Counted from the first letter of the stretch, positions 51,870 through 64,000 are shown. The stretch is DNA of 64,000 nucleotides from Anaerolineales bacterium (GCA_035455265.1 DATIFK010000012.1:6035-70034); one strand, 5' to 3'. Translations and numbers: made by a program. Notes: generated by a model not told the origin, from the sequence alone.

Positions 51870-51889
51870 TCTGAGCCAAGACGACACGG

Positions 51890-51930: not shown

Positions 51931-51957
51931 TCCCTCAACCCGGAGGAACCCCCAGGC

Positions 51958-52854
51958 ATGACCTCCCCTGCCCCTGCCCCCGCCTCCGCCAGGGTCACGA
52001 GGCCGCCCTCCAGCCTGGGAGCCTGGCTCGGCGTCGCACCGTTCTTCCTCTTCGCCGTCCTTTTCCTGTTCTTCCCTTCCTTGCGTCTGTTCATTGGCAG
52101 CTTCACAACCGAAGACGGCCGCTTCACGCTGGAAAACGTCCTGAAGCTCTTCACCGAACCGAGCATCCTGAATGCCTACTGGTTGAGCATCCGCATCAGT
52201 GCCGTCACGGCGGTGGGGGGCGGAATCTTCGGCTTCCTGCTGGCCTATTCGGTCACGATCGGAGGCCTCCCCAAGGCGATGCGATCCCTGTTGATCACCT
52301 TCTCCGGGGTGGCCTCCAACTTTGCCGGTGTGCCGTTGGCGTTCGCCTTTGTGGCGACACTCGGCCGCACCGGGTTCGTCACGGCCCTGCTCAAGAACGT
52401 CTTTCACCTCTCGATCTACGATCACGGTTTCAACCTCTACAGCTTCGCCGGCCTCAGCTTCACCTATATGTACTTTCAGTTCCCGTTGATGGTCTTGGTC
52501 ATGGCACCTGCCCTGGACGGGCTCAAGCGTGAGTGGCGCGAGGCCGCCGAGAACCTGGGCGCCAGCCGCACGCAATACTGGCTGCGGGTGGCGCTGCCGG
52601 TGCTGCTGCCCTCCATCCTGGGGTCGATGATCCTGCTTTTCGGCAACGCCTTCGGCGCCTACGCCACCGCCTATGCGCTCACCGGCGGCGCCCTGCCCAT
52701 CGTCACGATCCAGATCGGAGCCCAGATCCGCGGCGATGTCTTGCACAACGTGGGCCTGGGGTATGCCATGGCGATGGGGATGGTGTTCATCATGGCCGTC
52801 TCGTTGGCGGGCTATTCGTGGCTGCAGGGCCGCACGGAGAGGTGGCTGCGGTGA
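51958..52854 (+). CDS. ABC transporter permease
   Basis: BPD_transp_1 EAA loop EAAENLGASRTQYWLRVALP. Confidence 0.88.
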   Translation: MTSPAPAPASARVTRPPSSLGAWLGVAPFFLFAVLFLFFPSLRLFIGSFTTEDGRFTLENVLKLFTEPSILNAYWLSIRISAVTAVGGGIFGFLLAYSVTIGGLPKAMRSLLITFSGVASNFAGVPLAFAFVATLGRTGFVTALLKNVFHLSIYDHGFNLYSFAGLSFTYMYFQFPLMVLVMAPALDGLKREWREAAENLGASRTQYWLRVALPVLLPSILGSMILLFGNAFGAYATAYALTGGALPIVTIQIGAQIRGDVLHNVGLGYAMAMGMVFIMAVSLAGYSWLQGRTERWLR

Positions 52855-53732
52855 GCGCCCAGGCCCCCGCCGGCGCGCCCCCGGAGACGCGCGGGTCGGT
52901 CTCCCCACGCTTTCGCTTGCGCATCTTCCCTGTGTGGAGCTGGCTGTGGTACTTCCTGGGAGCGCTGTACTTCATCTTGCCCCTCTACGCCACATTGGAC
53001 TTCTCCTTGAGAATGGAACGGGGCGTGCTGGGCCTGAAGGCCTACGGCGTGGCCTTCGCCGACCGCGGGTTTCTTCAATCGTTCGGCTATTCCGTCTGGC
53101 TGGCGGTCGTCACGATCATCGTCAGCATCCTGCTGGTGGTCCCAACGGCCTACTGGATACGCCTGCGGCTACCTCAGGCACGGCGGATCGTTGAGTTCAT
53201 CACCCTGCTTCCCTTTGTGATCCCGGCCATCATTCTGGTCTTCGGCTTCATCCGCATCTACAGCTCTCCGATCGGCATCCCCTTCACCGATGTCCAGCTT
53301 CTGGCTCCGTTGACAACCTCCAAGCTGGGGACGAACGCCTTGATCGTCGCCGGCTACGTCGTCCTGGGGTTACCGTACATGTATCGCTCGGTCGATACAG
53401 GCATGCGCACGGTGGATGTGCGCACACTGACGGAGGCGGCGCAGAGTCTGGGGGCCAATTGGGCGACGATCATGACCCGCGTCATCCTACCGAACGTCCG
53501 CACGGCCCTGCTGAGCGGCGCACTGCTCACGTTCGCCATCGTCGTCGGCGAAGTGGTGCTCGCCTCCTACCTGGGCCTCCCGACGTTCGGGCCGTACCTC
53601 TTCCTGCTCGGGCAGCATCGAGCCTATGAACCAGCGGCGCTTACCTTCACCACCTTCCTGTTGACCTGGGCCGCCATGGGGATCATCCAACTGGTGACGG
53701 GCGGCCAGGGTCAGGTTGCCGGCGCCCACTAG
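52851..53732 (+). CDS. ABC transporter permease
   Basis: GTGA overlap with the upstream permease. EAA loop TEAAQSLGANWATIMTRVILP. The N-terminal part of track ORF 52533..53732 is rejected. Confidence 0.85.
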   Translation: MSAQAPAGAPPETRGSVSPRFRLRIFPVWSWLWYFLGALYFILPLYATLDFSLRMERGVLGLKAYGVAFADRGFLQSFGYSVWLAVVTIIVSILLVVPTAYWIRLRLPQARRIVEFITLLPFVIPAIILVFGFIRIYSSPIGIPFTDVQLLAPLTTSKLGTNALIVAGYVVLGLPYMYRSVDTGMRTVDVRTLTEAAQSLGANWATIMTRVILPNVRTALLSGALLTFAIVVGEVVLASYLGLPTFGPYLFLLGQHRAYEPAALTFTTFLLTWAAMGIIQLVTGGQGQVAGAH

Positions 53733-53744
53733 GGGATTGGGGAC

Positions 53745-54803
53745 ATGGCCTTCTTGTCGATCCAGCACGCATCGAAGAACTACGGGTCCGCCGTCGCCGT
53801 CGAGGATTTCAACCTCGAGATCGAGAAGGGGGAGCTCGTTTCCTTCCTGGGGCCGAGCGGCTGCGGCAAGACGACGACGCTGCGCATGGTGGCGGGTTTC
53901 GAAGTCCCTAGCAGCGGCAAGATCGAGCTGAGCGGCGTGGACATCACCAGCCGCCCTCCCAATCAACGCAATGTCGGGATGGTCTTCCAGGCCTATGCTC
54001 TCTTTCCCAACATGACCGTCGCCGACAACGTCGGTTTCGGCCTGAAGGTCGCCAACAAGCCGACGGCCGACATCCGCCGGCGAACCGACGAGATGCTGAC
54101 GCTCATCCGCATGCCGCAGCTCGGCGACCGCTATCCCTATCAGCTGTCGGGCGGGCAGCAGCAGCGCGTGGCGCTGGCGCGCGCCTTGGCCATTCAGCCG
54201 AGCGTCTTGCTGCTCGACGAGCCGCTCTCGGCCCTGGATGCCAAGATCCGCGTCGAGCTGCGCAGCGAGATCCGGCGCATCCAGCAGCAGCTGGGCATCA
54301 CGACCATCTACGTTACCCATGATCAAGAAGAGGCTCTCTCGATCTCCGACCGCATCGTGGTCATGAGCGCCGGGCGGATGGAACAGGTGGGCACCCCTTT
54401 CGAGATCTACAACTTCCCCAAGACCGCCTTTGCCGCTTCGTTCGTCGGCACGCTCAATCAACTGCGCTGCACGGTCGTCGACGCCGATCAGGCCAAGCTG
54501 GCCTTCGACGGCCAGACCTTCACCGCCGCGGCGCCCATCCGCGCCGCCAAGGGTGCTTCGGTCGTCGCCGCACTGCGGCCGGAAGAACTGCACATCGGGC
54601 GCTTCGACGGGGAGAACCAGCTGACTGGGACGGTCGAAGCGGTGACCTTTTTGGGCGGGATCGTACGCATCCGCCTGGCCCTGGGCGAATCGCGGATCAC
54701 CCTCGACGCTCTCAACGAGCGGCGCCTCACGCTGCCGAAGGTCGGGGAGACGCAGACGGTTTCCTTCCCGCCGCATGCCTGTTGGGTGATGGTGGAGAGC
54801 TGA
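53745..54803 (+). CDS. ABC transporter ATP-binding protein (PotA/MalK-like with C-terminal TOBE-type domain)
   Basis: Walker A GPSGCGKTT, signature LSGGQQQRVALARAL, Walker B LLLDEPLSALD. Confidence 0.92.
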   Translation: MAFLSIQHASKNYGSAVAVEDFNLEIEKGELVSFLGPSGCGKTTTLRMVAGFEVPSSGKIELSGVDITSRPPNQRNVGMVFQAYALFPNMTVADNVGFGLKVANKPTADIRRRTDEMLTLIRMPQLGDRYPYQLSGGQQQRVALARALAIQPSVLLLDEPLSALDAKIRVELRSEIRRIQQQLGITTIYVTHDQEEALSISDRIVVMSAGRMEQVGTPFEIYNFPKTAFAASFVGTLNQLRCTVVDADQAKLAFDGQTFTAAAPIRAAKGASVVAALRPEELHIGRFDGENQLTGTVEAVTFLGGIVRIRLALGESRITLDALNERRLTLPKVGETQTVSFPPHACWVMVES

Positions 54804-54833
54804 AAGGCCTCGGTTTTCCGACGTCCTGGCCGG

Positions 54834-55730
54834 TTGGCTAGCCCGCACGTGACAACCTCGGAACGCTCCACGAACCGCGCCTCGGCCCTGGGTGAGTTCG
54901 TCCTGATGACGATCGGGGCGGCCCTGCTTGTCCTGAGCGTCGACATCTTCCTGGCTCCTGGGGACATCGCCCCGGGCGGGGTCTCGGGCCTGTCGATCAT
55001 TCTCAATGACCGCCTGGGCTGGCCCATCGGCCTGACCATGCTGGCCTTCAATGTGCCGCTGCTGGCGCTCGGCTTCTACCATTTGGGGCGCTTCCGCTTC
55101 CTCACCCGAACGGTCTACCTGGTCCTGATCTACAGCCTGGGCGTCGACCTGCTGGCTCGCTACCTGCCTCCCGGCGGGATCAGCGACAATCTGCTGTTGA
55201 ACGCGCTCTACGGAGGTGTGGTCGGAGGCATCGGCACCGGTTTGGTCTACCGCGGCGGCGGAACCGTCGGCGGCACCGGCATCCTCGGCCGCGTGATCCA
55301 ACTGCGCACCGGCATGCCCATCAGCCAGGTTTACCTGTTCACCGACGGCGCCGTGATCCTTCTGGCGGGAGTCGTCTTCGGCTGGGAGCAGGGGCTGTAT
55401 GCGCTGCTGGCCCTGTTCGTCTGGGGCCTGGCCACCGATTACCTGCTCGAGGGGCCGAGCGTCGTGAGGACCGCCTTCATCGTGACCGATCATCCTCAGG
55501 CGGTGGCTCAAGCGATCGTCGACCATCTGGGCGTCGGTGTGACCACCTGGCCGGCAGAGGGACAATACACGCAGGAGAAGCACACCGTGCTCTTTTGCAC
55601 CATCAGCCGGCCGGACGTCGATGCCCTTCGCCGCGCCGTGACCGGCGCCGATGCGGAATCGTTCCTAGTCATCGGACACGGCCATCAGGCGACCGGCGGC
55701 ATGGTCCGCGCCGGCCGCCGCCGAGCCTAG
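54834..55730 (+). CDS. YitT-family membrane protein (DUF2179 C-terminal domain)
   Basis: Polytopic N-terminal part plus a C-terminal soluble domain (TAFIVTDHPQAVAQAIVDHLGVGVTTWPAEGQY). TTG start is uncertain. Confidence 0.7.
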   Translation: MASPHVTTSERSTNRASALGEFVLMTIGAALLVLSVDIFLAPGDIAPGGVSGLSIILNDRLGWPIGLTMLAFNVPLLALGFYHLGRFRFLTRTVYLVLIYSLGVDLLARYLPPGGISDNLLLNALYGGVVGGIGTGLVYRGGGTVGGTGILGRVIQLRTGMPISQVYLFTDGAVILLAGVVFGWEQGLYALLALFVWGLATDYLLEGPSVVRTAFIVTDHPQAVAQAIVDHLGVGVTTWPAEGQYTQEKHTVLFCTISRPDVDALRRAVTGADAESFLVIGHGHQATGGMVRAGRRRA

Positions 55731-55743
55731 GTTTCAGCGCACA

Positions 55744-55782
55744 CCCCAAACCCGTTTTGCCGATGGCAAAACGGGTTTGGGG
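55744..55782. repeat. 18-bp perfect hairpin CCCCAAACCCGTTTTGCC-GAT-GGCAAAACGGGTTTGGGG (terminator-like)
   Basis: Begins 14 nt after the YitT stop. Same core as the element at 33370. Confidence 0.85.
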
Positions 55783-55813
55783 TTCGGGTGCACTTCGACC
55801 CACAGGAGTCTTC

Positions 55814-56623
55814 ATGGGCAAGGTTGTCATGGTGGTTTCCGACGCCCTGCGCGACGACACCGCCCGGGCGCAGATGGGTTACCTGCAGCATCTGGTGGAA
55901 GCTGGACGAGCCACTCGCTACACCGTCGTGGCCGAGCTGCCGACGATGTCGCGGCCGCTGTATGAAACGCTGCACACCGGCGTGCCCGTCAGCGTCCACG
56001 GCGTCACCAACAACCTGATCGTGCGCCGCTCGACGATGCCGAACGTGTTCGAAGAAGCCGTGAAGCACGGACGAACGACGGGCGCCTCGGCCTACGGCTG
56101 GTTCTCCGAGCTCTACAATCGCGCCCCCTACGACCGGATCGCCGACCGGGAGGTCGACGACCCCGGCCTGGGGATCCAGCACGGTCGCTTCTATATGGAA
56201 GACAACATGCCGGACCGAGAGGTCTTCCTCGCCGGCGCCTCGGTGATCCTCAAATACCAGCCCGACTATGTCCTGATTCACCCGATGGGCATGGACCATC
56301 TGGGCGAGTCGTACGGTTCGGACTCGCCCGAGTATCGCAACAATGCTATCTTTCAAGATATGGCGCTGGCGAATCTGATCCCGGGCTGGCTGGAGCGCGG
56401 CTATACGGTGCTGGTCACCGCCGACCACGGGATCAACAACGATCGGCTCCACGGCGGCACCCTGCCCGACGTACGGCATGTGCCGCTGTATTGGATCCCG
56501 AAGGACGGGCGCGGCGGCGGGGACTCAGGCCGCCAGGTGCCTCAATTGAGCGTCGCGCCGACGCTGTGCTCCCTGCTGGGGATACCTATCCCCAAGACGA
56601 TGCAGGGATCCGCCATCGACTAG
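55814..56623 (+). CDS. alkaline-phosphatase-superfamily protein (type I phosphodiesterase/nucleotide pyrophosphatase-like)
   Basis: VVSDALRDD and VTADHG metal-site blocks. AGGAG upstream of the internal ATG. The N-terminal part of track ORF 55595..56623 is rejected. Confidence 0.7.
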   Translation: MGKVVMVVSDALRDDTARAQMGYLQHLVEAGRATRYTVVAELPTMSRPLYETLHTGVPVSVHGVTNNLIVRRSTMPNVFEEAVKHGRTTGASAYGWFSELYNRAPYDRIADREVDDPGLGIQHGRFYMEDNMPDREVFLAGASVILKYQPDYVLIHPMGMDHLGESYGSDSPEYRNNAIFQDMALANLIPGWLERGYTVLVTADHGINNDRLHGGTLPDVRHVPLYWIPKDGRGGGDSGRQVPQLSVAPTLCSLLGIPIPKTMQGSAID

Positions 56624-56706
56624 GACTCCATCCGCGCGAACGAAGGGCCATCGCCCCATCCCCGCCGCGGGCGTTCTTCGCCCCCGACATACCCAGGAGA
56701 TGCCCC

Positions 56707-57165
56707 ATGACCTTCACCTGTTCGATCCAAGAGGAAACGCCGCAACTCTCCCTCGTCGTACGGGTGCGCACGTCCGTGCAGGACCTGCCGCGCATGTTCG
56801 GGGAGTGCTTCGGCCGGGTCGCCGGCTACATGGCTTCTCTCGGCGAAGCGCCGGCCGGGCCGCCCTATGCCGCCTATCACAATGCCGACATGCAGAACCT
56901 CGACGTCGAGATCGGTTTCCCCGTGTCGAAGCCGCTGACGGGTGTGGAGGGCATCGAGGCGAGCCGAATCCCCGGCGGGCGCATGGCAAGCTGCATGTAC
57001 ACCGGGCCTTACAGCGGCGTGGGCAAGGCCTACGGGGAAATGCACGCCTGGATGGAGAAGCAAGGACACCAGGCCCAGGGCCCGTCGTATGAGATCTACC
57101 TGAACGATCCGGCCACCACTCCGCCCGAGGCGCTGCAGACGCTGATCCTGATGCCGCTCAAGTAG
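56707..57165 (+). CDS. GyrI-like small-molecule-binding domain protein
   Basis: Two-lobed GyrI-like pattern ending in EIYLNDP. Start placed at an internal ATG. Confidence 0.7.
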   Translation: MTFTCSIQEETPQLSLVVRVRTSVQDLPRMFGECFGRVAGYMASLGEAPAGPPYAAYHNADMQNLDVEIGFPVSKPLTGVEGIEASRIPGGRMASCMYTGPYSGVGKAYGEMHAWMEKQGHQAQGPSYEIYLNDPATTPPEALQTLILMPLK

Positions 57166-57254: not shown

Positions 57255-57283
57255 TTGACTTCGGAGCCAGCAGACCGTAGAAT
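57255..57283 (+). promoter_or_regulatory. sigma-70-type promoter (TTGACT-N17-TAGAAT) of the GntR/MttB operon
   Basis: TTGACT at 57255-57260, a 17-nt spacer, and TAGAAT at 57278-57283. Confidence 0.6.
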
Positions 57284-57291
57284 GGGGCCAT

Positions 57292-57311
57292 TGGTGTATA
57301 CCAATACACCA
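57292..57311. promoter_or_regulatory. candidate GntR/HutC operator TGGTGTAT-ACCA-ATACACCA
   Basis: 8-bp perfect inverted arms with a 4-nt spacer, 9 nt downstream of the -10 box and 16 nt upstream of the regulator start. Confidence 0.55.
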
Positions 57312-57326
57312 TAGGTCAACCAGCGC

Positions 57327-58106
57327 TTGGCTGCCATTTCTCAGGTCCGGCTCCTCCACCTCGACCCGCCAGTCGATCGTCTGATCGCCGGTGCGCCGCT
57401 GTACGCCCAGATCGCCGACGCGCTGCTCGGCCGCATCCAGAGGGGCGAGCTGGCGGTCGGCGATCGGTTGCCCCCGGAGCGCGAGTTGAGCGAGCACCTG
57501 GGGGTCAACCGGCTCACCCTGCGCCGTGCCCTGCGCGAATTGGAACACCGCGGCCTGTTGCGCCGTCGGCCCGGCCTGGGCACGTTCGTGGTCGAGCCCA
57601 AGGTCGAACGGCCCGCCGGTCGCCTCATTTCCTTCACTCGCGACGCGCAGCAGCTCGGATTTGCACCCGGTGCGAAGTTGCTGTCGCTGCAACCTCGCCT
57701 GGCCGACGCCGAACAGGCTGCCGACCTGCAGTTGCCGCTTTCGGCCGTGGTCTGGGACATCCTCCGCCTGCGGACGCTCAACACCGAACCGGTCCTGTTG
57801 GAGCACTACGCCCTGCCCCAACCGCGGTTCCCGAGCCTGGACCGGTTCGACCTGGAAGGCCGCTCCGTTTTCGAGGTCCTCGAGACGGAGTTCGGCGCCA
57901 CGATCGCGCGCGCCCGCCAGAGCCTGGAAGCCGTCGCCGCCGGCGTGCGCGAGGCTGAGTTGCTCGGTGTCTCGCCCGGCGCGCCCTTGATGCTCGAGCG
58001 CCGGCTGTCGTTCGACGCGCAGGATCGACCGGTGGAGCTCGGGCAAGACCTGTATCGAGGCGACCGTTTTCGTTTTGTGACCGAAAAGGCGCCGCGCGAA
58101 CGCTGA
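57327..58106 (+). CDS. GntR-family transcriptional regulator, HutC subfamily (UTRA effector domain)
   Basis: PLYAQIADALLGRIQRGEL.VGDRLPPERELSEHLGVNRLTLRRALRELEHRGLL followed by a UTRA-like C-terminal domain. TTG start (no in-frame ATG upstream of the HTH). Confidence 0.85.
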   Translation: MAAISQVRLLHLDPPVDRLIAGAPLYAQIADALLGRIQRGELAVGDRLPPERELSEHLGVNRLTLRRALRELEHRGLLRRRPGLGTFVVEPKVERPAGRLISFTRDAQQLGFAPGAKLLSLQPRLADAEQAADLQLPLSAVVWDILRLRTLNTEPVLLEHYALPQPRFPSLDRFDLEGRSVFEVLETEFGATIARARQSLEAVAAGVREAELLGVSPGAPLMLERRLSFDAQDRPVELGQDLYRGDRFRFVTEKAPRER

Positions 58107-58124
58107 GGCGCCGGGAGTCCCGCG

Positions 58125-59645
58125 ATGATCCATGACTATGCCAACCTGCTGACGGCGGACCAGGTCGAACGAGTGCATGCCGCTTCCCTGGAGATCCTGG
58201 CCGACGTCGGGCTCCTGGTGCGCAACGCCCGGGCCCGCGAGATCTTCGGCCGGCACGGCGCCCGCGTCGATGGCGAGTCCCAGGTTGTGCGGATTCCACC
58301 GGCCGTGGTCGAGGAATTTCGCCGTCAGATCCCGCCGACCTTCACCTTCTACGGCCGCGACCCGCGTTTCGACAAGACTATGCCGCAGGACACGCCGGTC
58401 ATCGTCACCGGTTCGTCGGCGCCGAACATCGTCGATCCGACCACCGGCCAGGAGCGGCGCGCCCGCTCCGACGACCTGGCCCGCATCGCCCACCTGGTCA
58501 ACGAGCTGCCGGGCTACGACGTCTTCTCGATTTCCACCTTGGCCGACGATGCGCCGCCCGGGCTGTTCACCCTGACGCGCCTGTACGCCTCGACCAAGTA
58601 CTGCCTCAAGCCGGTGCGCGCCAGCGGTCCCCCGGACGATGCCGCCAAGATTCTGGACTTCGCCTTCTTGGCGGCCGGTGGGGAAGATGCCTATCGCGCC
58701 CATCCGTTCATCACTCACCACTACTGCCCGGTCGTCTCGCCGCTGACGATGGACTTCGATTCGACCGAGATGTTGCTGTTCTTCAGCGGCGAAGGTTTGC
58801 CGTGCTACCCGACGATCGTCCCCAACGCCGGCCTGACATCTCCGCTGACTCTCCTGGCGACCCTGGCCCAGGGGAACGCCGAGTTCTTGGCCGCCGCCGT
58901 GCTCGAGCAAATGGTCCGCCCCGGCAAGCCGACGATCTACAGCAGCCTGCCGACGGTCGCCGACATGCGCACCGGAGCCTACGCGCCGGGCGCCATCGAG
59001 ACCGGCATCCTCTTCATCGGCACGGCGCAGATGGCGCGCTTCTACAACGTCCCCTGCGGCGGCTACATCGGGCTGACGAATGCCAAGGTCAACGACGCTC
59101 AGTCGGGGTACGAGACCGGGATGTCGGTCATCGCCGGGCTGCTGGGCGGGGTTCACATGTTCAACATGGCCGGCTTGCTCGACGCCCTGATGTCGTTCGA
59201 TTTCGCCAAGGCGATCATCGACGATGAAATCGCCCTGATGCTGAAGAAGACCGCCGCCGGCATACCCTTCTCCGATGACGAGTTCGCCCTGGACCTGATC
59301 GCCGAGGTGGGCCCCGGCGGGATGTTCGCCGACCACCTGCACACTGTCGAGCGGATGAAGACCACCGGGCTTCTGCCGGAGATCGCCGACCGCAACCCGC
59401 GCGGGCTGTGGCTCGAGCGGGGCGGCCTGGACGCGCACGCCCGCGCCCTGCAGCGGGCCCACGATATCCTGACGCGCGACAACAACGCCGGCTTCACGCC
59501 CGAGGTGGACGCGCAACTGCATGAGACGTTCACCGGCTTGCTGCCGACGGCGCTGCATCCGCCGCAGGGATGGACGCGGCCGCAAGGTCTCGACGGGCGC
59601 GGGCGGTCGGATCGGCGCCGGCGCCGAGCGGAGGCCGCCGCCTGA
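58125..59645 (+). CDS. MttB-superfamily (non-pyrrolysine) substrate:corrinoid methyltransferase
   Basis: 506-aa uninterrupted ORF with MttB-family blocks (LTADQVERVHAASLEILADVGLLV, SPLTLLATLAQGNAE, NMAGLLD). No in-frame TAG. Confidence 0.88.
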   Translation: MIHDYANLLTADQVERVHAASLEILADVGLLVRNARAREIFGRHGARVDGESQVVRIPPAVVEEFRRQIPPTFTFYGRDPRFDKTMPQDTPVIVTGSSAPNIVDPTTGQERRARSDDLARIAHLVNELPGYDVFSISTLADDAPPGLFTLTRLYASTKYCLKPVRASGPPDDAAKILDFAFLAAGGEDAYRAHPFITHHYCPVVSPLTMDFDSTEMLLFFSGEGLPCYPTIVPNAGLTSPLTLLATLAQGNAEFLAAAVLEQMVRPGKPTIYSSLPTVADMRTGAYAPGAIETGILFIGTAQMARFYNVPCGGYIGLTNAKVNDAQSGYETGMSVIAGLLGGVHMFNMAGLLDALMSFDFAKAIIDDEIALMLKKTAAGIPFSDDEFALDLIAEVGPGGMFADHLHTVERMKTTGLLPEIADRNPRGLWLERGGLDAHARALQRAHDILTRDNNAGFTPEVDAQLHETFTGLLPTALHPPQGWTRPQGLDGRGRSDRRRRRAEAAA

Positions 59646-59670
59646 GGTCTCATGCCGCGGCTGATAGCCT

Positions 59671-60537
59671 ATGACCCTCGCCAACCTGCTCCTCCTGCTG
59701 ACGGCGGCCGGCGTGCACGTCGTGACGCACATCGCCCTCAAGCGCAGCCGCGATCGGTCGGCTTTCGTCGGCTGGATGCTGCTGTGGTCGGCCATCCTCT
59801 TCTCGCCCATCGTCATTCTGACGCGCGCCTCGATTCCGCCGATCGGTTGGGCGCTGATGGCCTTCAGTTCGATCTTCGAGGCGGGTTACTTCATCGCCAT
59901 CGCCCTGGCGTATCGCGGCGCCGACCTCTCGGTGGTCTATCCGCTGGCGCGCGGCGTGGGGCCCGTGCTCTTGCTGGTATGGTCCGGCCTCATCCTGCGC
60001 GAGCCGCTGACCGCCGGCGGGGTCATCGGGGTGGGGTTGATCGCCCTGGGGCTGTACACCGTCAACCTGCCGCGGCCGGGCGCGTGGCGCGAGCCGCTCG
60101 CCGCCCTGCGCCAGAGCGGACCGCGCTGGGCGGTGGCGGCGGGAGTCTGCATCTCGGGCTACACCGCTATCGACAAGGTCGGGATCCGCTACGTGCCGCC
60201 GCTGCTCTATACCTATCTGGCGCTGTGGATTACCCTTCTGTGGGTGGCGCCGTGGACGGTGTGGTTTGTTGGTCGCAGCGGTCTGCGCGACGAGTGGCGC
60301 CTTTCGAAGTGGGGGATCATCCTGGCCGGGTTCACCACGTTGGCGGCCTACGGTCTGGTCCTGTTGGCGATGGCCGCGGGCACGCCGGCCAGCTACGCCG
60401 GGGCGATCCGCGAGGTGAGCGTGGTGTTGGGGGCCGCCTACGGCGTCTATGTGCTGAAGGAACAAGGCGGTCCGATGCGTCTGGTGGGCGCCGCTCTGGT
60501 CGCCTGCGGCGTGGTGGCGATCGGGTTGTTGGGGTGA
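59671..60537 (+). CDS. DMT-superfamily (EamA-like) transporter
   Basis: Ten-TM-like profile inside the corrinoid methyltransferase operon. Confidence 0.8.
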   Translation: MTLANLLLLLTAAGVHVVTHIALKRSRDRSAFVGWMLLWSAILFSPIVILTRASIPPIGWALMAFSSIFEAGYFIAIALAYRGADLSVVYPLARGVGPVLLLVWSGLILREPLTAGGVIGVGLIALGLYTVNLPRPGAWREPLAALRQSGPRWAVAAGVCISGYTAIDKVGIRYVPPLLYTYLALWITLLWVAPWTVWFVGRSGLRDEWRLSKWGIILAGFTTLAAYGLVLLAMAAGTPASYAGAIREVSVVLGAAYGVYVLKEQGGPMRLVGAALVACGVVAIGLLG

Positions 60538-60587
60538 GCGGTGGTTTGGTGATTGGAGATTCGTGACTTGTTCTCGCAGAAACGAAA

Positions 60588-60607
60588 CCGCAGGCTGAAG
60601 CCTGCGG
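60588..60607 (+). other. small stem-loop between the DMT transporter and activase genes
   Basis: CCGCAGGC-TGAA-GCCTGCGG; no T-tract follows. Confidence 0.3.
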
Positions 60608-60620
60608 CTACCGGCAACAC

Positions 60621-60647
60621 GGATGGCTGACGGCTGATGGCTGATCC
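60621..60647. repeat. heptad-type repeat (GGCTGAY units) running into the activase start codon
   Basis: ggatGGCTGACGGCTGATGGCTGATcc. The ATG at 60637 lies inside the third unit. Confidence 0.55.
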
Positions 60648-62676
60648 CGTAACCACATCCACCCATACGCTCATCCTGATGCCCTCCGGCCGGCGAGGTT
60701 CGGTCGCGCATAGCGCCAACTTGCTCGATGCCGCTCGTCAGCTCGGCGTCGAGATCGAGTCGATTTGCGGTGGGCGCCAGACCTGCGGCAAATGCCAGGT
60801 CGTCGTCGAGTCGGGAGCGTTCGCCAAGCACGGGATCACTTCCGATGACGGCCGCCTTTCCCCCGTTGGGCAGGTCGAGGCCGAGTACTGCGACGCCCAC
60901 GGGATTCGCGGCCGCCGGCTGGCCTGCGCCGCAAAGGTCGTCGGCGACGTTCTGATTGTCGTGCCGGAGGAAAGTCAGGCGCACAAGCAGGTCATCGCCA
61001 AGGCCGCCGTCGAACGGGCGGTCGAGGTCGATCCGGCCGTGCGCGCCGTGTACGTCGAAGTCGAGGCGGCGAATCTGGGATCGCACGGCGGCGACTGGGA
61101 GCGCCTGCAGGCGGCGCTTGCCGACCAGTGGAAGCTGCACGATCTGACGATCGATCCGCTGACCCTGCGGCAGCTGCAGCCGGCGTTGCAGGCGGGAGGC
61201 CATACGTTGACGGTCGGCCTGTGGCAGGACCGCGAGGTGATCCGCGTGCAGCCGGGCTACGCCGAAGGCGCCTGCGGCCTGGCGATCGACGTCGGAACAA
61301 CGACGATCGTCGCTCACCTGTGCGATCTGCGCACGGGCGCTCTGCTGGCGACCGAAGCGACGATGAATCCTCAGGTCCGCTACGGCGAGGACCTGATGAG
61401 CCGGGTCAGCTATGCCATGACGGAGCCGCAAGGTGTCGATCGCCTGCACCGGGCCGTCGTGCGCGCCCTGAACGAACTGGCCGAGCGCGCCGCGGCCTCG
61501 GCCGGGCGCTCGCTGGACGACATCCTCGACGCGGTCGTCGTGGGCAATCCGGTGATGCACCACCTGGTGCTGGGCCTCGATCCGAGCGGGCTGGGTGGGG
61601 CACCGTTCGCGTTGGCCGTCAGCGCGGCGGTGGACATCAAAGCCCGTGACCTCGGCTTTCACCTGAACCCGGCTGCTCGCGTGCACACCCTGCCGTGCAT
61701 CGCCGGTCATGTCGGCGCCGATCACGTCGCCGTCCTCTTGGCCGAGTCGCCGCAGACGTCGGAAGAAACGCTGCTGATCGTCGACGTCGGCACCAACGCC
61801 GAGATTTCCGTCGGGGACCGGAAGGGCCTGGCGTGCGCCTCGAGCCCCACCGGTCCGGCTTTCGAAGGCGCCCAGATCAGCCACGGCCAACGGGCCGCCG
61901 CCGGGGCGATCGAACGCGTGCGGATCGACCCGGCGACGCTCGAGCCCAGGCTGAAAGTCATCGGCCACGAGGGCTGGATCGACGGCCAGGCGGAACGCCC
62001 GCTTCCGTCTCCAGCCCGCGCCACGGGCATCTGCGGCAGCGGCATCATCGAGGCGGTGGCCGAGATGTTCCTGGCGGGCGTGATAGACTCCGGCGGCCGG
62101 TTCGCGGACGACGCGGCGGAACGTTCTGCCCGGGTGAGGCGGGAAGGGCGCAGCGCCGCGTATGTCTTGGTGACCGCCGCCGACAGCGCCACCGGCCACG
62201 ACATCGTCGTCAGCCAGAACGACGTTCGCGCCATCCAGCTGGCCAAGGCCGCTCTGTACACCGGAGCCAAGCTGCTGCTGCGCCATCGCCGCCAGCCGTC
62301 CGTCGATCGCGTGTTGCTGGCGGGCGCCTTCGGAAACACGATCGACCCGCGCTACGCCATGGTCCTGGGTCTCATTCCGGATGCGCCGCTGGACCGTGTC
62401 CTGGCCGTGGGCAACGCCGCCGGCGACGGAGCCCGCCTGGCCCTGTTGAATCGGGGGCTGCGGGCCGAAGCGGCGCGGCTGGCGGGTTGGGTGGAGCACG
62501 TTCAGATCGCCACCGACCCGGAGTTCCAGCCGGAATTCGTCGCCGCCATGGGTCTGCCGCATGCGACCGATCCGTTCCCTCACCTGGCCGATATCCTCCC
62601 GTCGCCGTCGCCGGACGCGGTCCGCCCCAGCCAGCGGCGGAAAGCGGTGGTCACGGGAGCTTCGAGGAGCGCATGA
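60637..62676 (+). CDS. corrinoid reductive activase (RamA/RACE-like): 2Fe-2S ferredoxin domain plus ASKHA ATPase domain
   Basis: N-terminal plant-type ferredoxin motif CGGRQTCGKCQV...C. ASKHA phosphate motifs AIDVGTTT and IVDVGTNAE. 679 aa. Confidence 0.85.
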   Translation: MADPVTTSTHTLILMPSGRRGSVAHSANLLDAARQLGVEIESICGGRQTCGKCQVVVESGAFAKHGITSDDGRLSPVGQVEAEYCDAHGIRGRRLACAAKVVGDVLIVVPEESQAHKQVIAKAAVERAVEVDPAVRAVYVEVEAANLGSHGGDWERLQAALADQWKLHDLTIDPLTLRQLQPALQAGGHTLTVGLWQDREVIRVQPGYAEGACGLAIDVGTTTIVAHLCDLRTGALLATEATMNPQVRYGEDLMSRVSYAMTEPQGVDRLHRAVVRALNELAERAAASAGRSLDDILDAVVVGNPVMHHLVLGLDPSGLGGAPFALAVSAAVDIKARDLGFHLNPAARVHTLPCIAGHVGADHVAVLLAESPQTSEETLLIVDVGTNAEISVGDRKGLACASSPTGPAFEGAQISHGQRAAAGAIERVRIDPATLEPRLKVIGHEGWIDGQAERPLPSPARATGICGSGIIEAVAEMFLAGVIDSGGRFADDAAERSARVRREGRSAAYVLVTAADSATGHDIVVSQNDVRAIQLAKAALYTGAKLLLRHRRQPSVDRVLLAGAFGNTIDPRYAMVLGLIPDAPLDRVLAVGNAAGDGARLALLNRGLRAEAARLAGWVEHVQIATDPEFQPEFVAAMGLPHATDPFPHLADILPSPSPDAVRPSQRRKAVVTGASRSA

Positions 62677-63365
62677 GCGAAGACGTTGATCTGACGAAGA
62701 TGGAAACCGAGCCTCTGGTCGAACGCATCCAGGACGACCTGTACGACGGCCTGGCGGAACCGGTCGTGGCCGGCGTGAAGGAGCTCCTGCGGCGCGGCTG
62801 GATGCCCTACGAGGTGTTGACCAAGGCGCTTGTGGCCGGCATGGATGTCGTCGGCGATGACTTCCGCGACGGGATCCTGTTCGTGCCGGAAGTGCTGATG
62901 GCCGCCAAATCGATGAAGGCCGGTATGGAGATCCTTCGCCCGCTGCTGGTCGAGACCGGCGCGCCGCAGATTGGGACGATGGTCATCGGCACGGTCAAGG
63001 GTGACATCCACGACATCGGCAAGAACCTGGTGGCGATGATGATGGAGGGGGCCGGTTTCAAGGTCGTCAATCTGGGGATCAACGTCGACGCCGACAAGTT
63101 CCTGGCTGCCATTCATGAGCACAAGCCCGACATTCTCGGCATGAGCGCCCTGCTGACGACGACCATGCCCTACATGGGTGTCGTGATCAAGACCCTCAAG
63201 GAAACCGGGATCCGTCCGGAGTTGATCGTGCTCGTCGGTGGAGCGCCGCTGAACGCCGCGTTCGCCGAAGAGATCGAGGCCGATGCCTACTGCCGCGACG
63301 CGGCCGTGGCTGTGCAAACCGCCAAGAAGCTGGTGGCGATCAAACGCGGCGAGGCGGTCGGATGA
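62673..63365 (+). CDS. cobalamin-binding corrinoid protein
   Basis: ATGA overlap with the activase gene. B12-binding motifs GDIHDIGK, SALLTTT and GGAPLN, with an N-terminal helical cap. Confidence 0.9.
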   Translation: MSEDVDLTKMETEPLVERIQDDLYDGLAEPVVAGVKELLRRGWMPYEVLTKALVAGMDVVGDDFRDGILFVPEVLMAAKSMKAGMEILRPLLVETGAPQIGTMVIGTVKGDIHDIGKNLVAMMMEGAGFKVVNLGINVDADKFLAAIHEHKPDILGMSALLTTTMPYMGVVIKTLKETGIRPELIVLVGGAPLNAAFAEEIEADAYCRDAAVAVQTAKKLVAIKRGEAVG

Positions 63366-63524
63366 CCCCAATGCTTTCCACGGTCCGCACAAGGGAGGCA
63401 TTGGGGTGACCCCATCCCTTTCACCAGCCCGCACACCGCCTCGGTGCACCGAAACGGGTGGAAAGGAGGCGTTGGGGTGACCCCAACGCTTTCACCAGCC
63501 CGCACAAAGGAGGCGTTGGGGTGA
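63366..63524 (+). repeat. three tandem copies of a 44-71-bp unit (CCCCAAYGC...AAGGAGGCRTTGGGGTGA), each carrying an SD, a start and a stop
   Basis: Units at 63366-63409, 63410-63480 (with a ~27-nt insertion) and 63481-63524. Units 1 and 3 contain a perfect 9-bp inverted repeat CCCCAAYGC/GCRTTGGGG; in unit 2 the left arm is degenerate (CCCCATCCC). The last unit supplies the RBS and GTG of the downstream gene. Confidence 0.9.
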
Positions 63525-64000
63525 CCCACGATCGCTGGGCGAAGCTTCTGGCACGCCCCGGCGTTGTGCTGGCCGACGGCGCCATGGGGACGATGCTCTT
63601 CGACGCCGGCCTGCAGTTCGGCGATCCGCCCGAGCGCTGGAATGTCGAGTATCCCGATCGGGTGCGCGCCATCCACCGCGGCTACCTGGAAGCCGGGGCG
63701 CGCCTGATCCTGACCAACACCTTCGGCGGGAACGGCTTCCGTCTCGGACTGCACGGGCTGGAAGGCCGCGTGGCCGAGCTCAGCATGGCCGGGGCGCTGA
63801 TCGCTCGCGCCGAAGTGGATGCCTCCGGAAACGGAGCGCTCGTCGCCGGCGACATCGGACCCAGCGGGACGATCCTCGCGCCGCTGGGGGAGACCTTGTT
63901 CGAGGACGCCGCCGCGGCGTTTGCCGAGCAAGCCAGGGCACTGGTCAAGGGCGGCGTCGATGTCCTGTGGATTGAGACGATGTCGGACTTGGAGGAAATG
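63521..64000 (+). CDS. homocysteine S-methyltransferase-domain protein (MetH N-terminal-like), 5' partial, runs off the window
   Basis: My own translation from GTG 63521: VTHDRWAKLLARPGVVLADGAMGTMLFDAGL...YLEAGARLILTNTFGGN...GDIGPSG, which are hallmark Hcy-binding domain blocks. Absent from the ORF track because there is no stop within the window. AAGGAGG lies 8 nt upstream. Confidence 0.8.
   Translation, partial: MTHDRWAKLLARPGVVLADGAMGTMLFDAGLQFGDPPERWNVEYPDRVRAIHRGYLEAGARLILTNTFGGNGFRLGLHGLEGRVAELSMAGALIARAEVDASGNGALVAGDIGPSGTILAPLGETLFEDAAAAFAEQARALVKGGVDVLWIETMSDLEEM

What the first reader, a model, noticed from the sequence alone, without database searches (positions are those of the whole stretch)
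57255..64000. Regulated operon for corrinoid-dependent demethylation, apparently feeding homocysteine methylation
Seen: the gene order is promoter/operator, GntR(HutC), MttB-superfamily methyltransferase with no in-frame TAG (so non-pyrrolysine), DMT transporter, RamA-like activase (2Fe-2S plus ASKHA), corrinoid protein, and a protein with a homocysteine S-methyltransferase domain (DGAMGT, TNTFG) that runs off the window. Couplings are tight (an ATGA overlap plus the mini-ORF ladder). Established: non-Pyl MttB homologs include glycine betaine (MtgB), proline betaine (MtpB), carnitine (MtcB) and gamma-butyrobetaine (MtyB) methyltransferases. These act with a corrinoid protein, a RamA-type reductive activase and a methylcorrinoid:tetrahydrofolate methyltransferase. 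Inference: here the third methyltransferase carries an Hcy-binding domain instead, so the methyl group from an unknown quaternary amine or other methylated substrate may go directly to homocysteine. That would be a substrate-driven, split MetH-like methionine synthase. The substrate cannot be read from the sequence. The embedded DMT transporter, rather than the usual BCCT type, may import it.
Basis: partly seen in the sequence, partly recalled or inferred. Interest (0 to 1): 0.6.

Follow-up and report, generated by a model that had tools for sequence, protein, structure and literature searches.

The report
Split methionine synthase with MttB methyl-donor module
This is a Chloroflexota operon joining an unknown-substrate methyl-harvesting enzyme to a B12-dependent methionine synthase built from separate proteins, a design published for marine bacteria in 2018 and 2025, so it is a well-organised new example, not a new kind of system.

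Summary
On the + strand sit a promoter/operator, GntR(HutC), a non-pyrrolysine MttB homolog, an EamA/DMT transporter, a RACo/RamA-type activase, a corrinoid protein and the first 160 residues of a homocysteine S-methyltransferase.

In every syntenic relative long enough to show it, the last gene is a single-domain protein of about 300 aa. It is followed by DUF1638, PF13769, MetV/MetF and a pterin-binding methyl-THF:corrinoid methyltransferase. The Hcy enzyme therefore does not replace the THF methyltransferase; both share one corrinoid protein.

That is the "split MetH" of Phaeobacter (Price 2018) and the MtgBCDE dual system of Ruegeria (Mausz 2025). The linkage is conserved: among metagenomic orthologs with MttB at least 66.5% identical, GntR was found in 31/31, RACo in 17/17, the Hcy methyltransferase in 14/14 and the pterin protein in 10/11.

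The MttB is not a glycine-betaine MtgB. All four betaine-binding residues (Y97, R312, H348, F356) are replaced by S, G, N, L in 120/120 orthologs. Recurrent neighbours (choline kinase, phosphoesterases, DMGDH-like demethylases, ABC and APC transporters) hint at a choline/phosphocholine-type donor. This is not proven.

Verdict: new member of a known kind, moderate interest.

The parts
57255..57283 (+). Sigma-70-like promoter TTGACT-17 nt-TAGAAT.
   Evidence: It is the only promoter-like hit in 56400-64000, where shuffles give 0.4. Both hexamers are identical in L081 while the flanks diverge.
57290..57311 (+). Operator-like near-palindrome ATTGGTGTATACCAAT. The inverted-repeat arms are TGGTGTAT (57292-57299) and ATACACCA (57304-57311). 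It is the presumed GntR/HutC binding site.
   Evidence: Inverted repeat found. The sequence is 100% conserved in L081. The core is also present 14-27 nt upstream of the GntR start in L082, L084 and L085/L086, in either orientation. It occurs only once in the 64-kb window.
57327..58106 (+). GntR-family regulator of the HutC subfamily (winged HTH plus UTRA effector domain).
   Evidence: PF00392 (74 bits) and PF07702 (129 bits). No NCBIfam equivalog reaches its cut-off. A GntR gene lies upstream of the MttB ortholog in 31/31 close metagenomic loci.
58125..59645 (+). Non-pyrrolysine MttB-superfamily methyltransferase. Its presumed role is to transfer a methyl group from the substrate to the Co(I) corrinoid protein. 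The substrate is unknown.
   Evidence: PF06253, 296 bits. It is 33% identical to D. hafniense MtgB (9YCE/2QNE, 218 bits). It has no TAG codon, and Leu317 sits at the Pyl position. The glycine-betaine-site residues are S, G, N, L in place of Y97, R312, H348, F356 in 120/120 orthologs.
59671..60537 (+). EamA/DMT-family membrane transporter of unknown substrate.
   Evidence: PF00892. Its best NCBIfam hit is phn_DUF6 at 117 bits, far below the cut-off of 288. It is present in 14/25 close orthologous loci. It is unrelated (E > 1e-3) to the EamA genes beside Hcy methyltransferase genes in betaproteobacterial loci.
60637..62676 (+). RACo/RamA-type ATP-dependent reductive activase of corrinoid proteins (2Fe-2S ferredoxin domain plus ASKHA ATPase).
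   Evidence: Fer2, RACo_linker, Raco_middle and RACo_C_ter. AcsV model 376 bits. PDB 3ZYY 305 bits over the full length. Found after the MttB gene in 17/17 close loci.
62673..63365 (+). Corrinoid (B12-binding) methyl-carrier protein of the MtgC type. Its start overlaps the RACo stop (ATGA).
   Evidence: PF02607 and PF02310. Best NCBIfam hit is corrin_MtgC_2 at 204 bits, below the cut-off of 370. The DxHxxG motif is read from the translation. It is 77-91% identical in orthologous loci with MttB at least 66% identical, and found in 15/15 of them.
63362..63524 (+). Ladder of three mini-ORFs (15, 24 and 15 codons), joined by ATGA/GTGA start-stop overlaps. They relay translation from the corrinoid protein to the Hcy methyltransferase. 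The units arose by tandem duplication of the gene junction.
   Evidence: Repeat families and inverted repeats and translations. L081 has two units; L001 has none, only a plain ATGA overlap. Hairpins of -23 and -20.6 kcal/mol enclose the SD and start of internal units, while the true start is unstructured.
63521..64000 (+). N-terminal 160 residues of a stand-alone homocysteine S-methyltransferase (MtgE / bacterial 'Bhmt' / split-MetH Hcy module). The gene runs off the window.
   Evidence: PF02574, 115 bits. Best NCBIfam hit is NF005718. Orthologs are 298-302 aa (L081, L082). 77 homologs are 174-365 aa with no extra domains. The L081 ortholog is closest to the T. maritima MetH Hcy module (205 bits), against 88 bits for human BHMT.
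46678..57165 (+). Upstream genes that co-occur with this MttB orthogroup and probably belong to the same pathway. They are: a metallophosphoesterase-like protein (46678-47736), an APC permease (47815-49479), an unknown 250-aa protein (49677-50429), an ABC transporter (SBP 50697-51869, permeases 51958-52854 and about 52851-53732, ATPase 53745-54803), YitT (54834-55730), a PF01663 phosphodiesterase (55814-56623) and a GyrI-like protein (56707-57165).
   Evidence: Pfam and NCBIfam. The order is the same in L081, L082 and L084. Homologs of the same genes lie downstream of the MttB in the more distant 'type B' loci, so the association survives rearrangement.

Best explanation
The locus is the 5' two-thirds of a single large Anaerolineales (Chloroflexota) operon. 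It fuses a substrate-specific methyl-harvesting module to a complete 'split' cobalamin-dependent methionine synthase.

Proposed mechanism:
1. A HutC-type GntR repressor sits on the ATTGGTGTATACCAAT operator just downstream of the promoter, and is released by an unknown effector.
2. The MttB-family enzyme strips a methyl group from its substrate and puts it on the Co(I) form of the small corrinoid protein.
3. The RACo/RamA-type activase, probably helped by DUF1638, uses ATP and a low-potential electron to rescue the carrier whenever it oxidises to Co(II).
4. The methyl-Co(III) carrier can be unloaded in two ways. The stand-alone Hcy S-methyltransferase (MtgE) makes methionine. The pterin-binding methyltransferase (MtgD), encoded just beyond the window end, makes methyl-THF, which MetF/MetV oxidises for C1 metabolism.
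5. When no substrate is present, MtgD runs in the other direction, and MtgD, the corrinoid protein and MtgE act as an ordinary methyl-THF-dependent methionine synthase.

What is shown: the domain content, gene order, couplings, conserved synteny and conserved operator.
What is inferred from published homologous systems: the direction of the methyl transfers, the sharing of the carrier, and the regulation.

The methyl donor is not glycine betaine. The gene neighbourhood points weakly (about 35%) to a choline/phosphocholine-type donor, that is, a kinase-activated amino alcohol.
For: Domain content of all six genes.

Synteny that extends past the window end:
- L081 (every protein 84-91% identical) continues HcyMT(298 aa)-AhpC/TSA-DUF1638-PF13769-DUF5981-MTHFR-Pterin_bind.
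- The same string occurs in L082/L083, L084 and L085.
- Among 38 metagenomic loci with MttB at least 66.5% identical, counting only contigs long enough: GntR 31/31, RACo 17/17, CoP 15/15, HcyMT 14/14, MTHFR 12/12, Pterin_bind 10/11.
- L087 has MttB-CoP-HcyMT directly adjacent.

The RACo-CoP-HcyMT triad also occurs, with DUF1638, PF13769, MetV, MetF and Pterin_bind, in Anaerolineae and betaproteobacterial loci that lack an adjacent MttB. This marks it as the methionine-synthase core.

The MttB sub-cluster has no corrinoid protein of its own, so the enzyme must use the downstream one.

The L081 pterin protein passes NF005719 (341 bits against 259), and the L081 HcyMT scores 330.7 against a cut-off of 338 for NF005718. 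The HcyMT is nearest to the MetH Hcy module.

Literature:
- Genetic proof of a three-part MetH plus RamA-like and DUF1638 reactivation proteins in P. inhibens (PMC5764234).
- mtgC and mtgD knock-outs in R. pomeroyi lose both methionine prototrophy and growth on glycine betaine (PMC12478193).

Operator and promoter conservation.

Substrate:
- S/G/N/L at the four betaine-binding positions. The residues are defined in PMC13080624.
- Choline_kinase (PF01633) and DMGDH-like genes sit next to the operon in L098, L101, L103, L108, L112 and L115. They also sit next to the MttB in the rearranged type-B loci, together with a PfkB kinase, a metallophosphoesterase-like protein, a PF01663 phosphodiesterase, an APC permease and the ABC transporter.
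- Precedent for kinase activation before MttB-type demethylation: MthK/MthB (PMC12155760).
Against: - The window stops after 160 residues of the Hcy methyltransferase. DUF1638, MetF and the pterin protein are inferred for this genome from relatives and are not seen here. Exact-sequence look-ups of the window's proteins found no contig on record.
- There is no biochemical or genetic evidence for any Chloroflexota member.
- A 99-nt spacer with a 10-bp hairpin separates EamA from RACo, so an internal transcript boundary cannot be excluded. The hairpin has no T-tail on the + strand and is not conserved in L081.
- The triad occurs without an MttB in many genomes, so the link to this MttB could reflect co-regulation without carrier sharing.
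- For the choline-type idea: characterised MthB keeps Arg312 for the phosphate (PMC13080624), while this orthogroup has Gly there.
- Transporter matches to 2-aminoethylphosphonate systems are all below cut-off.
Confidence: 0.8

Rival explanations
1. The system has no THF branch. The Hcy methyltransferase replaces the methylcorrinoid:THF methyltransferase, so methyl groups from the substrate go only to homocysteine (a folate-independent, substrate-driven methionine synthase).
For: No pterin-binding gene lies within the window. The Hcy methyltransferase is translationally chained to the corrinoid protein. L087 shows MttB-CoP-HcyMT with no pterin gene nearby.
Against: Pterin_bind, MTHFR and DUF5981 genes follow in the same string in 10/11 to 12/12 sufficiently long orthologous loci, including the 90%-identical L081. 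The L081 pterin protein passes the NCBIfam cut-off.
Confidence: 0.05
2. Two independent units lie side by side. GntR-MttB-EamA would be a catabolic cassette that uses some other corrinoid protein (for example a paralog like the one at 653-1309). RACo-CoP-HcyMT and the genes after it would be simply the housekeeping split methionine synthase.
For: The triad with MetF and the pterin gene occurs without an adjacent MttB in many Anaerolineae and betaproteobacteria. There is a 99-nt spacer with a hairpin before RACo. The genome has at least one more MttB and corrinoid-protein pair.
Against: The order MttB-(EamA)-RACo-CoP-HcyMT holds in 14/14 to 17/17 loci across 66-97% MttB identity. In many of them MttB abuts RACo directly, with no EamA. 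The cassette has no corrinoid gene of its own. L087, L135 and L159 place a corrinoid protein immediately after the MttB. In R. pomeroyi one MtgC serves both functions (PMC12478193).
Confidence: 0.1
3. The last gene is a stand-alone betaine/DMSP/S-methylmethionine:homocysteine methyltransferase (BHMT or MmuM type) that takes its methyl group directly from a small molecule and not from the corrinoid protein.
For: The best NCBIfam name is 'betaine--homocysteine S-methyltransferase'. Purified P. inhibens Bmt (PGA1_c13370), which Mausz et al. equate with MtgE and which I file in the same family, made methionine from DMSP or betaine without cobalamin in vitro (PMC12366255).
Against: The ortholog scores 205 bits to the MetH Hcy module, against 88 bits to human BHMT and 69 bits to a stand-alone homocysteine S-methyltransferase structure (5DML). 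It is translationally coupled to the corrinoid protein and is always clustered with RACo, DUF1638 and the pterin protein. Mausz et al. argue that only SAR11 Bhmt keeps the betaine-binding residues. The P. inhibens gene is required for methionine synthesis together with the corrinoid and pterin pieces.
Confidence: 0.07
4. The MttB homolog is a glycine betaine methyltransferase (MtgB), and the locus is a straightforward ortholog of the marine MtgBCDE glycine-betaine system.
For: The closest solved structure is D. hafniense MtgB (218 bits). The corrinoid protein's best NCBIfam hit is MtgC. A DMGDH-like gene lies near several orthologous operons.
Against: All four residues that bind glycine betaine (Y97, R312, H348, F356; substitutions raise Km 20- to 800-fold or abolish activity, PMC13080624) are S, G, N, L in 120/120 orthologs. 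By contrast, S. meliloti 4YYC and the MttB genes beside HcyMT in L020, L040, L046 and L080 keep Y, R, H. Identity to MtgB is only 33%.
Confidence: 0.06

Closest known systems
MtgBCDE dual glycine-betaine demethylase / methionine synthase of Ruegeria pomeroyi, with cluster examples in S. meliloti and marine Proteobacteria (Mausz et al., PNAS 2025, PMC12478193).
   Same: It has the same cast: a PF06253 methyltransferase, a small corrinoid protein, a pterin-binding methyltransferase, a stand-alone PF02574 Hcy methyltransferase, a RamA-like activase, DUF1638 and a MetF paralog. It follows the same logic, with one corrinoid carrier shared between methyl-donor demethylation and methionine synthesis.
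   Different: This locus is from Chloroflexota (Anaerolineales), not Proteobacteria. All parts are in one co-oriented string behind a GntR/HutC regulator, whereas in R. pomeroyi they are scattered. The MttB member belongs to a different orthogroup that lacks the glycine-betaine site (S, G, N, L). An EamA transporter is embedded, and in some relatives a peroxiredoxin-like gene. No experimental data exist.
Three-part split MetH of Phaeobacter inhibens: PGA1_c13370, PGA1_c13350 and PGA1_c16040, plus the RamA-like PGA1_c15200 and DUF1638 PGA1_c13340 (Price et al., PLoS Genet 2018, PMC5764234).
   Same: It has separate Hcy, corrinoid and pterin proteins. Reactivation is by a ferredoxin-ASKHA (DUF4445/RACo) protein and DUF1638, not by the MetH AdoMet domain.
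   Different: The Phaeobacter study describes the system as a methionine synthase only and reports no MttB component. Here an MttB gene is part of the conserved operon.
MtgB/MtgC/MtgA of Desulfitobacterium hafniense, and the MtpB, MtcB, MtyB and MthB systems of Eubacterium limosum (Krzycki laboratory; PMC13080624, PMC12155760).
   Same: A non-Pyl MttB-superfamily enzyme methylates a cognate corrinoid protein. A pterin-type methyltransferase passes the methyl group to THF. A RamA/RACo activase is required. For MthB, a kinase (MthK) activates the substrate first, and kinases are also neighbours of this orthogroup.
   Different: Those anaerobe systems are described with THF as the acceptor, with no Hcy methyltransferase as a component. 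This MttB lacks Arg312, which all characterised acidic-quaternary-amine members keep. The neighbouring kinases here are of the choline-kinase (PF01633) and PfkB types, not MthK.
Canonical MetH (E. coli, T. maritima).
   Same: The Hcy, pterin and B12-cap/B12 modules are homologous. The Hcy protein's best solved relative is T. maritima MetH 1Q7M, and the corrinoid protein has the His-on DxHxxG motif.
   Different: The modules are separate polypeptides. There is no AdoMet reactivation domain; RACo and DUF1638 take its place. An extra methyl-donor enzyme feeds the same cofactor.
Core (folate-independent) methionine synthases MesA-D / core-MetE (PMC7857596, PMC7005905).
   Same: Methionine is made from a methylated corrinoid protein and not directly from methyl-folate.
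   Different: Those enzymes are MetE-type, not the PF02574 Hcy S-methyltransferase fold, and have no associated pterin methyltransferase.

Membership tests
MttB superfamily, non-pyrrolysine branch | Full-length match to PF06253. | tested here: met
   296 bits covering profile positions 31-490 of 500.
MttB superfamily, non-pyrrolysine branch | No in-frame UAG; an ordinary residue at the pyrrolysine position. | tested here: met
   There are 0 TAG codons in the ORF. Leu317 aligns with the 'X' of M. barkeri MttB 7XCL. TIGR02369 (Pyl-type MttB) scores 343 bits, below its cut-off of 525.
MttB superfamily, non-pyrrolysine branch | Methylates a cognate corrinoid protein. | not testable with these tools
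   Only a genomic association is available: a corrinoid protein lies in the same operon in 15/15 close loci.
MtgB (glycine betaine:corrinoid methyltransferase) | Glycine-betaine binding motif Y97, R312, H348, F356 (PMC13080624). | tested here: not met
   The residues are S, G, N, L in the window protein and in 120/120 orthologs. The control sequences behave as expected: Dh MtgB has YRHF and Sm 4YYC has YRHG.
Split methionine synthase / MtgCDE | Stand-alone PF02574 Hcy S-methyltransferase with no pterin, B12 or AdoMet domains. | tested here: met
   The window holds residues 1-160 only. Orthologs are 298-302 aa. 77 homologs are 174-365 aa. The L081 ortholog scores 330.7 bits on NF005718, just under the cut-off of 338.
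Split methionine synthase / MtgCDE | Separate corrinoid protein with a B12 cap, a B12-binding domain and DxHxxG. | tested here: met
   PF02607 and PF02310. The motif GDIHDIG is in the translation of 62673-63365.
Split methionine synthase / MtgCDE | Separate pterin-binding (PF00809) methyl-THF:corrinoid methyltransferase. | tested here: inconclusive
   It is not inside the window. It is present in the same string in syntenic relatives (L081, L082, L084, L098 and others; 10/11 loci), and the L081 protein passes NF005719. For this genome it is inferred.
Split methionine synthase / MtgCDE | RamA-like (ferredoxin + ASKHA/DUF4445) activase and a DUF1638 partner. | tested here: met
   The activase is in the window. 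DUF1638 is seen only in relatives (11/13 loci).
Split methionine synthase / MtgCDE | Required for methionine prototrophy; the carrier is shared with the methyl-donor demethylase. | not testable with these tools
   Genetic evidence exists only for P. inhibens and R. pomeroyi.
Canonical MetH | Hcy, pterin, B12 and AdoMet modules in a single polypeptide. | tested here: not met
   The TIGR02082 hits are partial and far below cut-off for each separate protein. Homolog lengths are 174-365 aa.
BHMT-type direct betaine:Hcy methyltransferase | Closer to BHMT than to the MetH Hcy module; betaine-binding residues present. | tested here: inconclusive
   The ortholog scores 205 bits to T. maritima MetH and 88 bits to human BHMT. 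The betaine-binding residues were not examined. The NCBIfam name alone says 'betaine--homocysteine'.
RACo / reductive activator of corrinoid proteins | N-terminal 2Fe-2S ferredoxin, then linker, middle and C-terminal ASKHA domains. | tested here: met
   All four Pfam domains are present, in order. PDB 3ZYY scores 305 bits over residues 12-643.
GntR family, HutC subfamily | N-terminal GntR winged HTH plus a C-terminal UTRA domain, with a palindromic operator near its own promoter. | tested here: met
   PF00392 and PF07702. A conserved near-palindrome lies 16 nt upstream of the start codon and recurs in four other lineages. Binding itself was not tested.

The most novel reading that the evidence does not exclude
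The S/G/N/L MttB orthogroup would be a seventh substrate class of the MttB superfamily. Its donor would be a kinase-activated amino alcohol of the choline/phosphocholine or N-methyl-ethanolamine-phosphate type, or another non-carboxylate methylamine. This orthogroup lacks the Arg that all characterised members use for an acidic group. In Anaerolineales the enzyme is hard-wired by one operon and one regulator to a split methionine synthase, so an environmental methyl donor would directly supply both methionine and the C1 pool in a phylum where this chemistry has not been described.
Probability: 0.35. Interest if true: 0.55.

Novelty: new member of a known kind. Interest (0 to 1): 0.38.

Why it matters
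The locus extends the recently described coupling of methyl-donor demethylation to B12-dependent methionine synthesis. That coupling was published for marine Proteobacteria; this places it in soil, sediment and wastewater-type Chloroflexota.

It is an unusually clean case. The regulator, donor enzyme, transporter, activase, carrier and both acceptor enzymes sit in one string, which suits in vitro reconstitution and tests of carrier sharing.

The MttB orthogroup has a distinct, fully conserved active-site signature and a telling neighbourhood: choline kinase, phosphoesterases and DMGDH-like demethylases. It is therefore a concrete candidate for a new substrate specificity in a superfamily with very few characterised members (MthB was reported as only the sixth).

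It also corrects likely annotations. The 'betaine--homocysteine S-methyltransferase' and 'trimethylamine methyltransferase' names that family-model and source annotations attach to these genes are probably both wrong in function.

Tried and rejected
- Exact-sequence look-ups of the window's corrinoid protein, of its MttB and of the 100%-identical database entry P0001 found no contig. The window could therefore not be extended on its own genome, and I used relatives instead.
- No riboswitch or other Rfam family is present in 56000-64000. The only hit (gntR-DTE, 28 bits against a gathering score of 63.6, inside the RACo gene) is chance.
- The terminator scan gave nothing convincing on the + strand between genes. 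The hairpin at 60586-60609 looks like a terminator only on the - strand and is not conserved in L081.
- I considered whether the EamA gene is tied to the methionine-synthase core, because betaproteobacterial clusters also carry an EamA gene next to HcyMT. The two are not detectably similar, so I rejected this.
- I considered an aminophosphonate substrate, because the ABC ATPase, the SBP, the EamA and the GntR all have their best or near-best NCBIfam hits to 2-aminoethylphosphonate/phosphonate families. Every score is below cut-off (the nearest is PhnT2 at 414 against 457.7), so I keep it only as a weak alternative.
- The palindromic repeat in the CoP-HcyMT spacer is not a genome-wide REP element. 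It occurs nowhere else in the 64 kb.
- I did not run structure prediction. The tool returns no coordinates for pocket analysis, so it would not resolve the substrate.

Full report
**1. What is in the sequence**

The region 57255-64000 carries six co-oriented genes on the + strand. Pfam assigns them as follows:
- GntR + UTRA, 57327-58106.
- MTTB, 58125-59645 (296 bits).
- EamA, 59671-60537.
- Fer2 + RACo_linker + Raco_middle + RACo_C_ter, 60637-62676.
- B12-binding_2 + B12-binding, 62673-63365.
- S-methyl_trans, 63521 to the window end (profile positions 2-150 of 283).

NCBIfam refines this. The activase is closest to AcsV-type corrinoid activators and only weakly to archaeal RamA. The corrinoid protein is closest to MtgC models, below cut-off. 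The last fragment is closest to NF005718, a 337-residue single-domain model named betaine--homocysteine S-methyltransferase.

The MttB ORF has no TAG codon. Leu317 aligns with the pyrrolysine position of M. barkeri MttB.

Gene spacings are 18, 25 and 99 nt, followed by an ATGA overlap. Between the corrinoid protein and the Hcy methyltransferase lie three mini-ORFs of 15, 24 and 15 codons. Each begins on the NTGA that ends the previous ORF.

TTGACT-17-TAGAAT at 57255-57283 is the only promoter-like match in 7.6 kb. It is followed by the near-palindrome ATTGGTGTATACCAAT.

**2. The window ends too early; relatives show the rest**

Exact look-ups of the window's own proteins failed. A protein search with the MttB found close orthologs, and their contigs could be read.

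L081 has every protein 84-91% identical to the window's. It has the same upstream genes and the same six genes. It then continues with:
- HcyMT, complete at 298 aa;
- an AhpC/TSA-like redox protein;
- DUF1638 and PF13769;
- DUF5981 (the MetV partner of MetF) and MTHFR;
- a Pterin_bind protein.

The same string is found in L082/L083, L084 and L085/L086, which are 78, 74 and 69% identical in MttB.

The L081 pterin protein passes the NCBIfam cut-off for methyltetrahydrofolate:corrinoid methyltransferase (341 bits against 259). The full-length HcyMT scores 330.7 against a cut-off of 338 for NF005718.

A scan of metagenome contigs gave 80 more loci. For the 38 with MttB at least 66.5% identical, I counted only contigs long enough to show each gene:

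| Gene | Present / assessable |
|---|---|
| GntR | 31/31 |
| RACo | 17/17 |
| Corrinoid protein | 15/15 |
| HcyMT | 14/14 |
| DUF1638 | 11/13 |
| MTHFR | 12/12 |
| Pterin_bind | 10/11 |
| EamA | 14/25 |

The Hcy methyltransferase is thus a small stand-alone enzyme. All 77 full-length homologs from the genome collection are 174-365 aa. It sits alongside a THF methyltransferase and does not replace one.

**3. The conserved core**

I started from the Hcy methyltransferase and searched one genome per species. The triad RACo-corrinoid protein-HcyMT recurs in many Anaerolineae, and in a different order in Betaproteobacteria.

Clustering the neighbours and annotating representatives shows that the constant companions are DUF1638, PF13769, DUF5981, MTHFR and Pterin_bind. 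An MttB gene is present only sometimes.

The HcyMT ortholog is far closer to the Hcy module of MetH (T. maritima 1Q7M, 205 bits) than to human BHMT (88 bits) or to a stand-alone homocysteine S-methyltransferase structure (5DML, 69 bits). The activase matches RACo 3ZYY over its full length.

**4. This is a published kind of system**

Price et al. 2018 (PMC5764234) showed genetically that Phaeobacter inhibens makes methionine with three separate proteins carrying PF02574, PF00809, and PF02607 with PF02310. They also identified a RamA-like ferredoxin/DUF4445 protein and a DUF1638 protein for B12 reactivation.

Mausz et al. 2025 (PMC12478193) showed in Ruegeria pomeroyi that the same corrinoid protein (MtgC) and pterin protein (MtgD) are needed both for methionine prototrophy and for growth on glycine betaine. 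In their model, PF06253 proteins (MtgB) load the carrier and the Hcy protein (MtgE, the rhizobial 'Bhmt') unloads it. They noted that several PF06253 paralogs per genome probably feed other methylated compounds into the same carrier.

**5. What differs here**

*Phylum and organisation.* The nearest relatives are Anaerolineales/Chloroflexota MAGs. The whole system is one co-oriented string behind its own regulator.

The promoter hexamers and a 24-nt block containing the operator are identical between the window and L081, while the surrounding spacer has diverged. The ATTGGT-N4-ACCAAT core recurs 14-27 nt upstream of the GntR start in three more lineages, in either orientation. This is a phylogenetic footprint for autoregulated, effector-controlled expression.

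*The donor enzyme.* Picking et al. 2026 (PMC13080624) defined the glycine-betaine site of D. hafniense MtgB as Y97, R312, H348 and F356. Substitutions raise Km 20- to 800-fold or abolish activity. R312 is conserved in all characterised acidic-quaternary-amine members.

In a MAFFT alignment the window protein has S, G, N, L at these columns, as do all 120 orthologs retrieved. The controls behave as expected:
- Dh MtgB: YRHF.
- S. meliloti 4YYC: YRHG.
- MttB genes beside HcyMT in the Anaerolineae locus L046, Stappia (L040), the Rhodoferax MAG (L080) and a Pseudomonadota MAG (L020): YRHG.

By this test the enzyme is not an MtgB.

**6. Clues to the substrate**

The more distant orthologs (62-66% identical) sit in a different arrangement, which I call type B:
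- two DAO/FAO_M/GCV_T (dimethylglycine-dehydrogenase-like) genes;
- a choline/ethanolamine kinase (PF01633);
- a CBS protein, a 263-aa unknown protein and DeoR;
- sometimes a Rieske oxygenase;
- a PfkB kinase immediately before the MttB;
- after the MttB: a metallophosphoesterase-like protein, an APC permease, an ABC transporter and a PF01663 phosphodiesterase.

The genes after the MttB in type B are homologs of the window's upstream genes 46678-56623. That block therefore travels with this MttB in two different arrangements and very likely belongs to the same pathway.

In type-A loci that are long enough (L098, L101, L103, L108, L112, L115), a PF01633 choline kinase (101 and 91 bits; cut-off 29) and a DMGDH-like gene lie convergently just after the pterin gene. 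L084 has the DMGDH-like gene at that position.

There is a precedent for kinase activation before MttB-type demethylation. E. limosum MthK makes phosphocholine for MthB (PMC12155760).

Together these findings suggest a choline/phosphocholine-type donor, followed by DMGDH-like removal of the remaining methyl groups. I rate this at about 35%. MthB keeps Arg312 and this orthogroup does not. In addition, the ABC components have their nearest, sub-threshold NCBIfam matches to 2-aminoethylphosphonate systems.

**7. Rivals**

- A folate-free system is contradicted by the downstream pterin, MetF and MetV genes in relatives.
- Mere juxtaposition of two units is made unlikely by four points: the invariant order across 66-97% MttB identity, the direct abutment of MttB and RACo where EamA is absent, the lack of any corrinoid gene in the MttB cassette, and loci where a corrinoid protein immediately follows the MttB. 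Co-transcription across the 99-nt spacer remains untested.
- A stand-alone BHMT-like role for the last gene has some in vitro support from P. inhibens Bmt (PMC12366255). It fits poorly with the MetH-like sequence affinity and the translational chaining to the corrinoid protein.

**8. Verdict**

The locus is a Chloroflexota member of the MtgBCDE / split-MetH kind. Its organisation is unusually compact and regulated, and its donor enzyme has unknown, probably novel, specificity.

It is not categorically new. Its value is as a clean test bed and as a lead to a new MttB substrate.

Noticed in passing
window 653-2908 (- strand): A second MttB-family gene (1379-2908, PF06253, 298 bits) with its own corrinoid protein (653-1309) lies at the other end of the window. 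It is 29% identical to the MttB at 58125. Its signature at the four glycine-betaine-site positions is S, H, S, E, so it probably has yet another substrate. No activase or acceptor methyltransferase is visible before the window edge.
   Followed up: partly
window 63362-63524; L081 13215-13306: A mini-ORF ladder lies between the corrinoid protein and the Hcy methyltransferase. It consists of tandem copies of the gene junction, each starting on the NTGA that stops the previous ORF. The peptides are MTPMLSTVRTREALG, VTPSLSPARTPPRCTETGGKEALG and VTPTLSPARTKEALG. The window has three units, L081 has two, and L001, L082, L084 and L085 have none. Internal units fold into 10-13 bp hairpins (-23 and -20.6 kcal/mol) that hold the SD and start codon, and a G-C to A-U compensatory change distinguishes the window from L081. 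The true start is unstructured. It looks like an enforced translational-coupling relay, but it may be a neutral duplication.
   Followed up: partly
L081 14211-14903; L082 16158-16829: An AhpC/TSA-type redox protein (NCBIfam 'SelL-related redox protein', below cut-off) is inserted between the Hcy methyltransferase and DUF1638 in some relatives. It may protect or reduce the oxygen-sensitive Co(I) system. It is probably present just beyond the window end.
   Followed up: no
L001 4196-4507; L081 15641-15961; many loci (cluster c7): A small PF13769 ('Virulence_fact') protein of about 100 aa is a constant neighbour of DUF1638 and MetV/MetF in split-MetH clusters of both Chloroflexota and Betaproteobacteria. 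Its function is unknown, and I did not see it mentioned in the two papers on the split synthase.
   Followed up: no
L133, L141, L146, L149, L152, L153, L156, L157, L160, L164, L166 (metagenome loci): This is the 'type B' neighbourhood of the same MttB orthogroup. It has DeoR in place of GntR, a PfkB kinase directly upstream of the MttB, two DMGDH-like genes, a choline kinase, and sometimes a Rieske oxygenase. No corrinoid protein or activase is adjacent. The carrier must be encoded elsewhere in those genomes.
   Followed up: partly
window 60586-60609: A 10-bp GC-rich hairpin (CCGCAGGC-TGAA-GCCTGCGG core) lies in the 99-nt EamA-RACo spacer. It scores as a terminator only on the - strand, where no gene converges, and it is not conserved in L081.
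   Followed up: partly
window 49677-50429: A 250-aa ORF with no Pfam or NCBIfam match sits between the APC permease and the ABC transporter. It is 37-41% identical to an equally unannotated 263-aa protein that accompanies the MttB in type-B loci, and 60% identical in L159. It is a conserved unknown member of the pathway.
   Followed up: partly
window 61253-61374: There is a weak Rfam hit to gntR-DTE RNA (28 bits against a gathering score of 63.6, E = 0.03) inside the RACo coding sequence. I take it to be chance.
   Followed up: no
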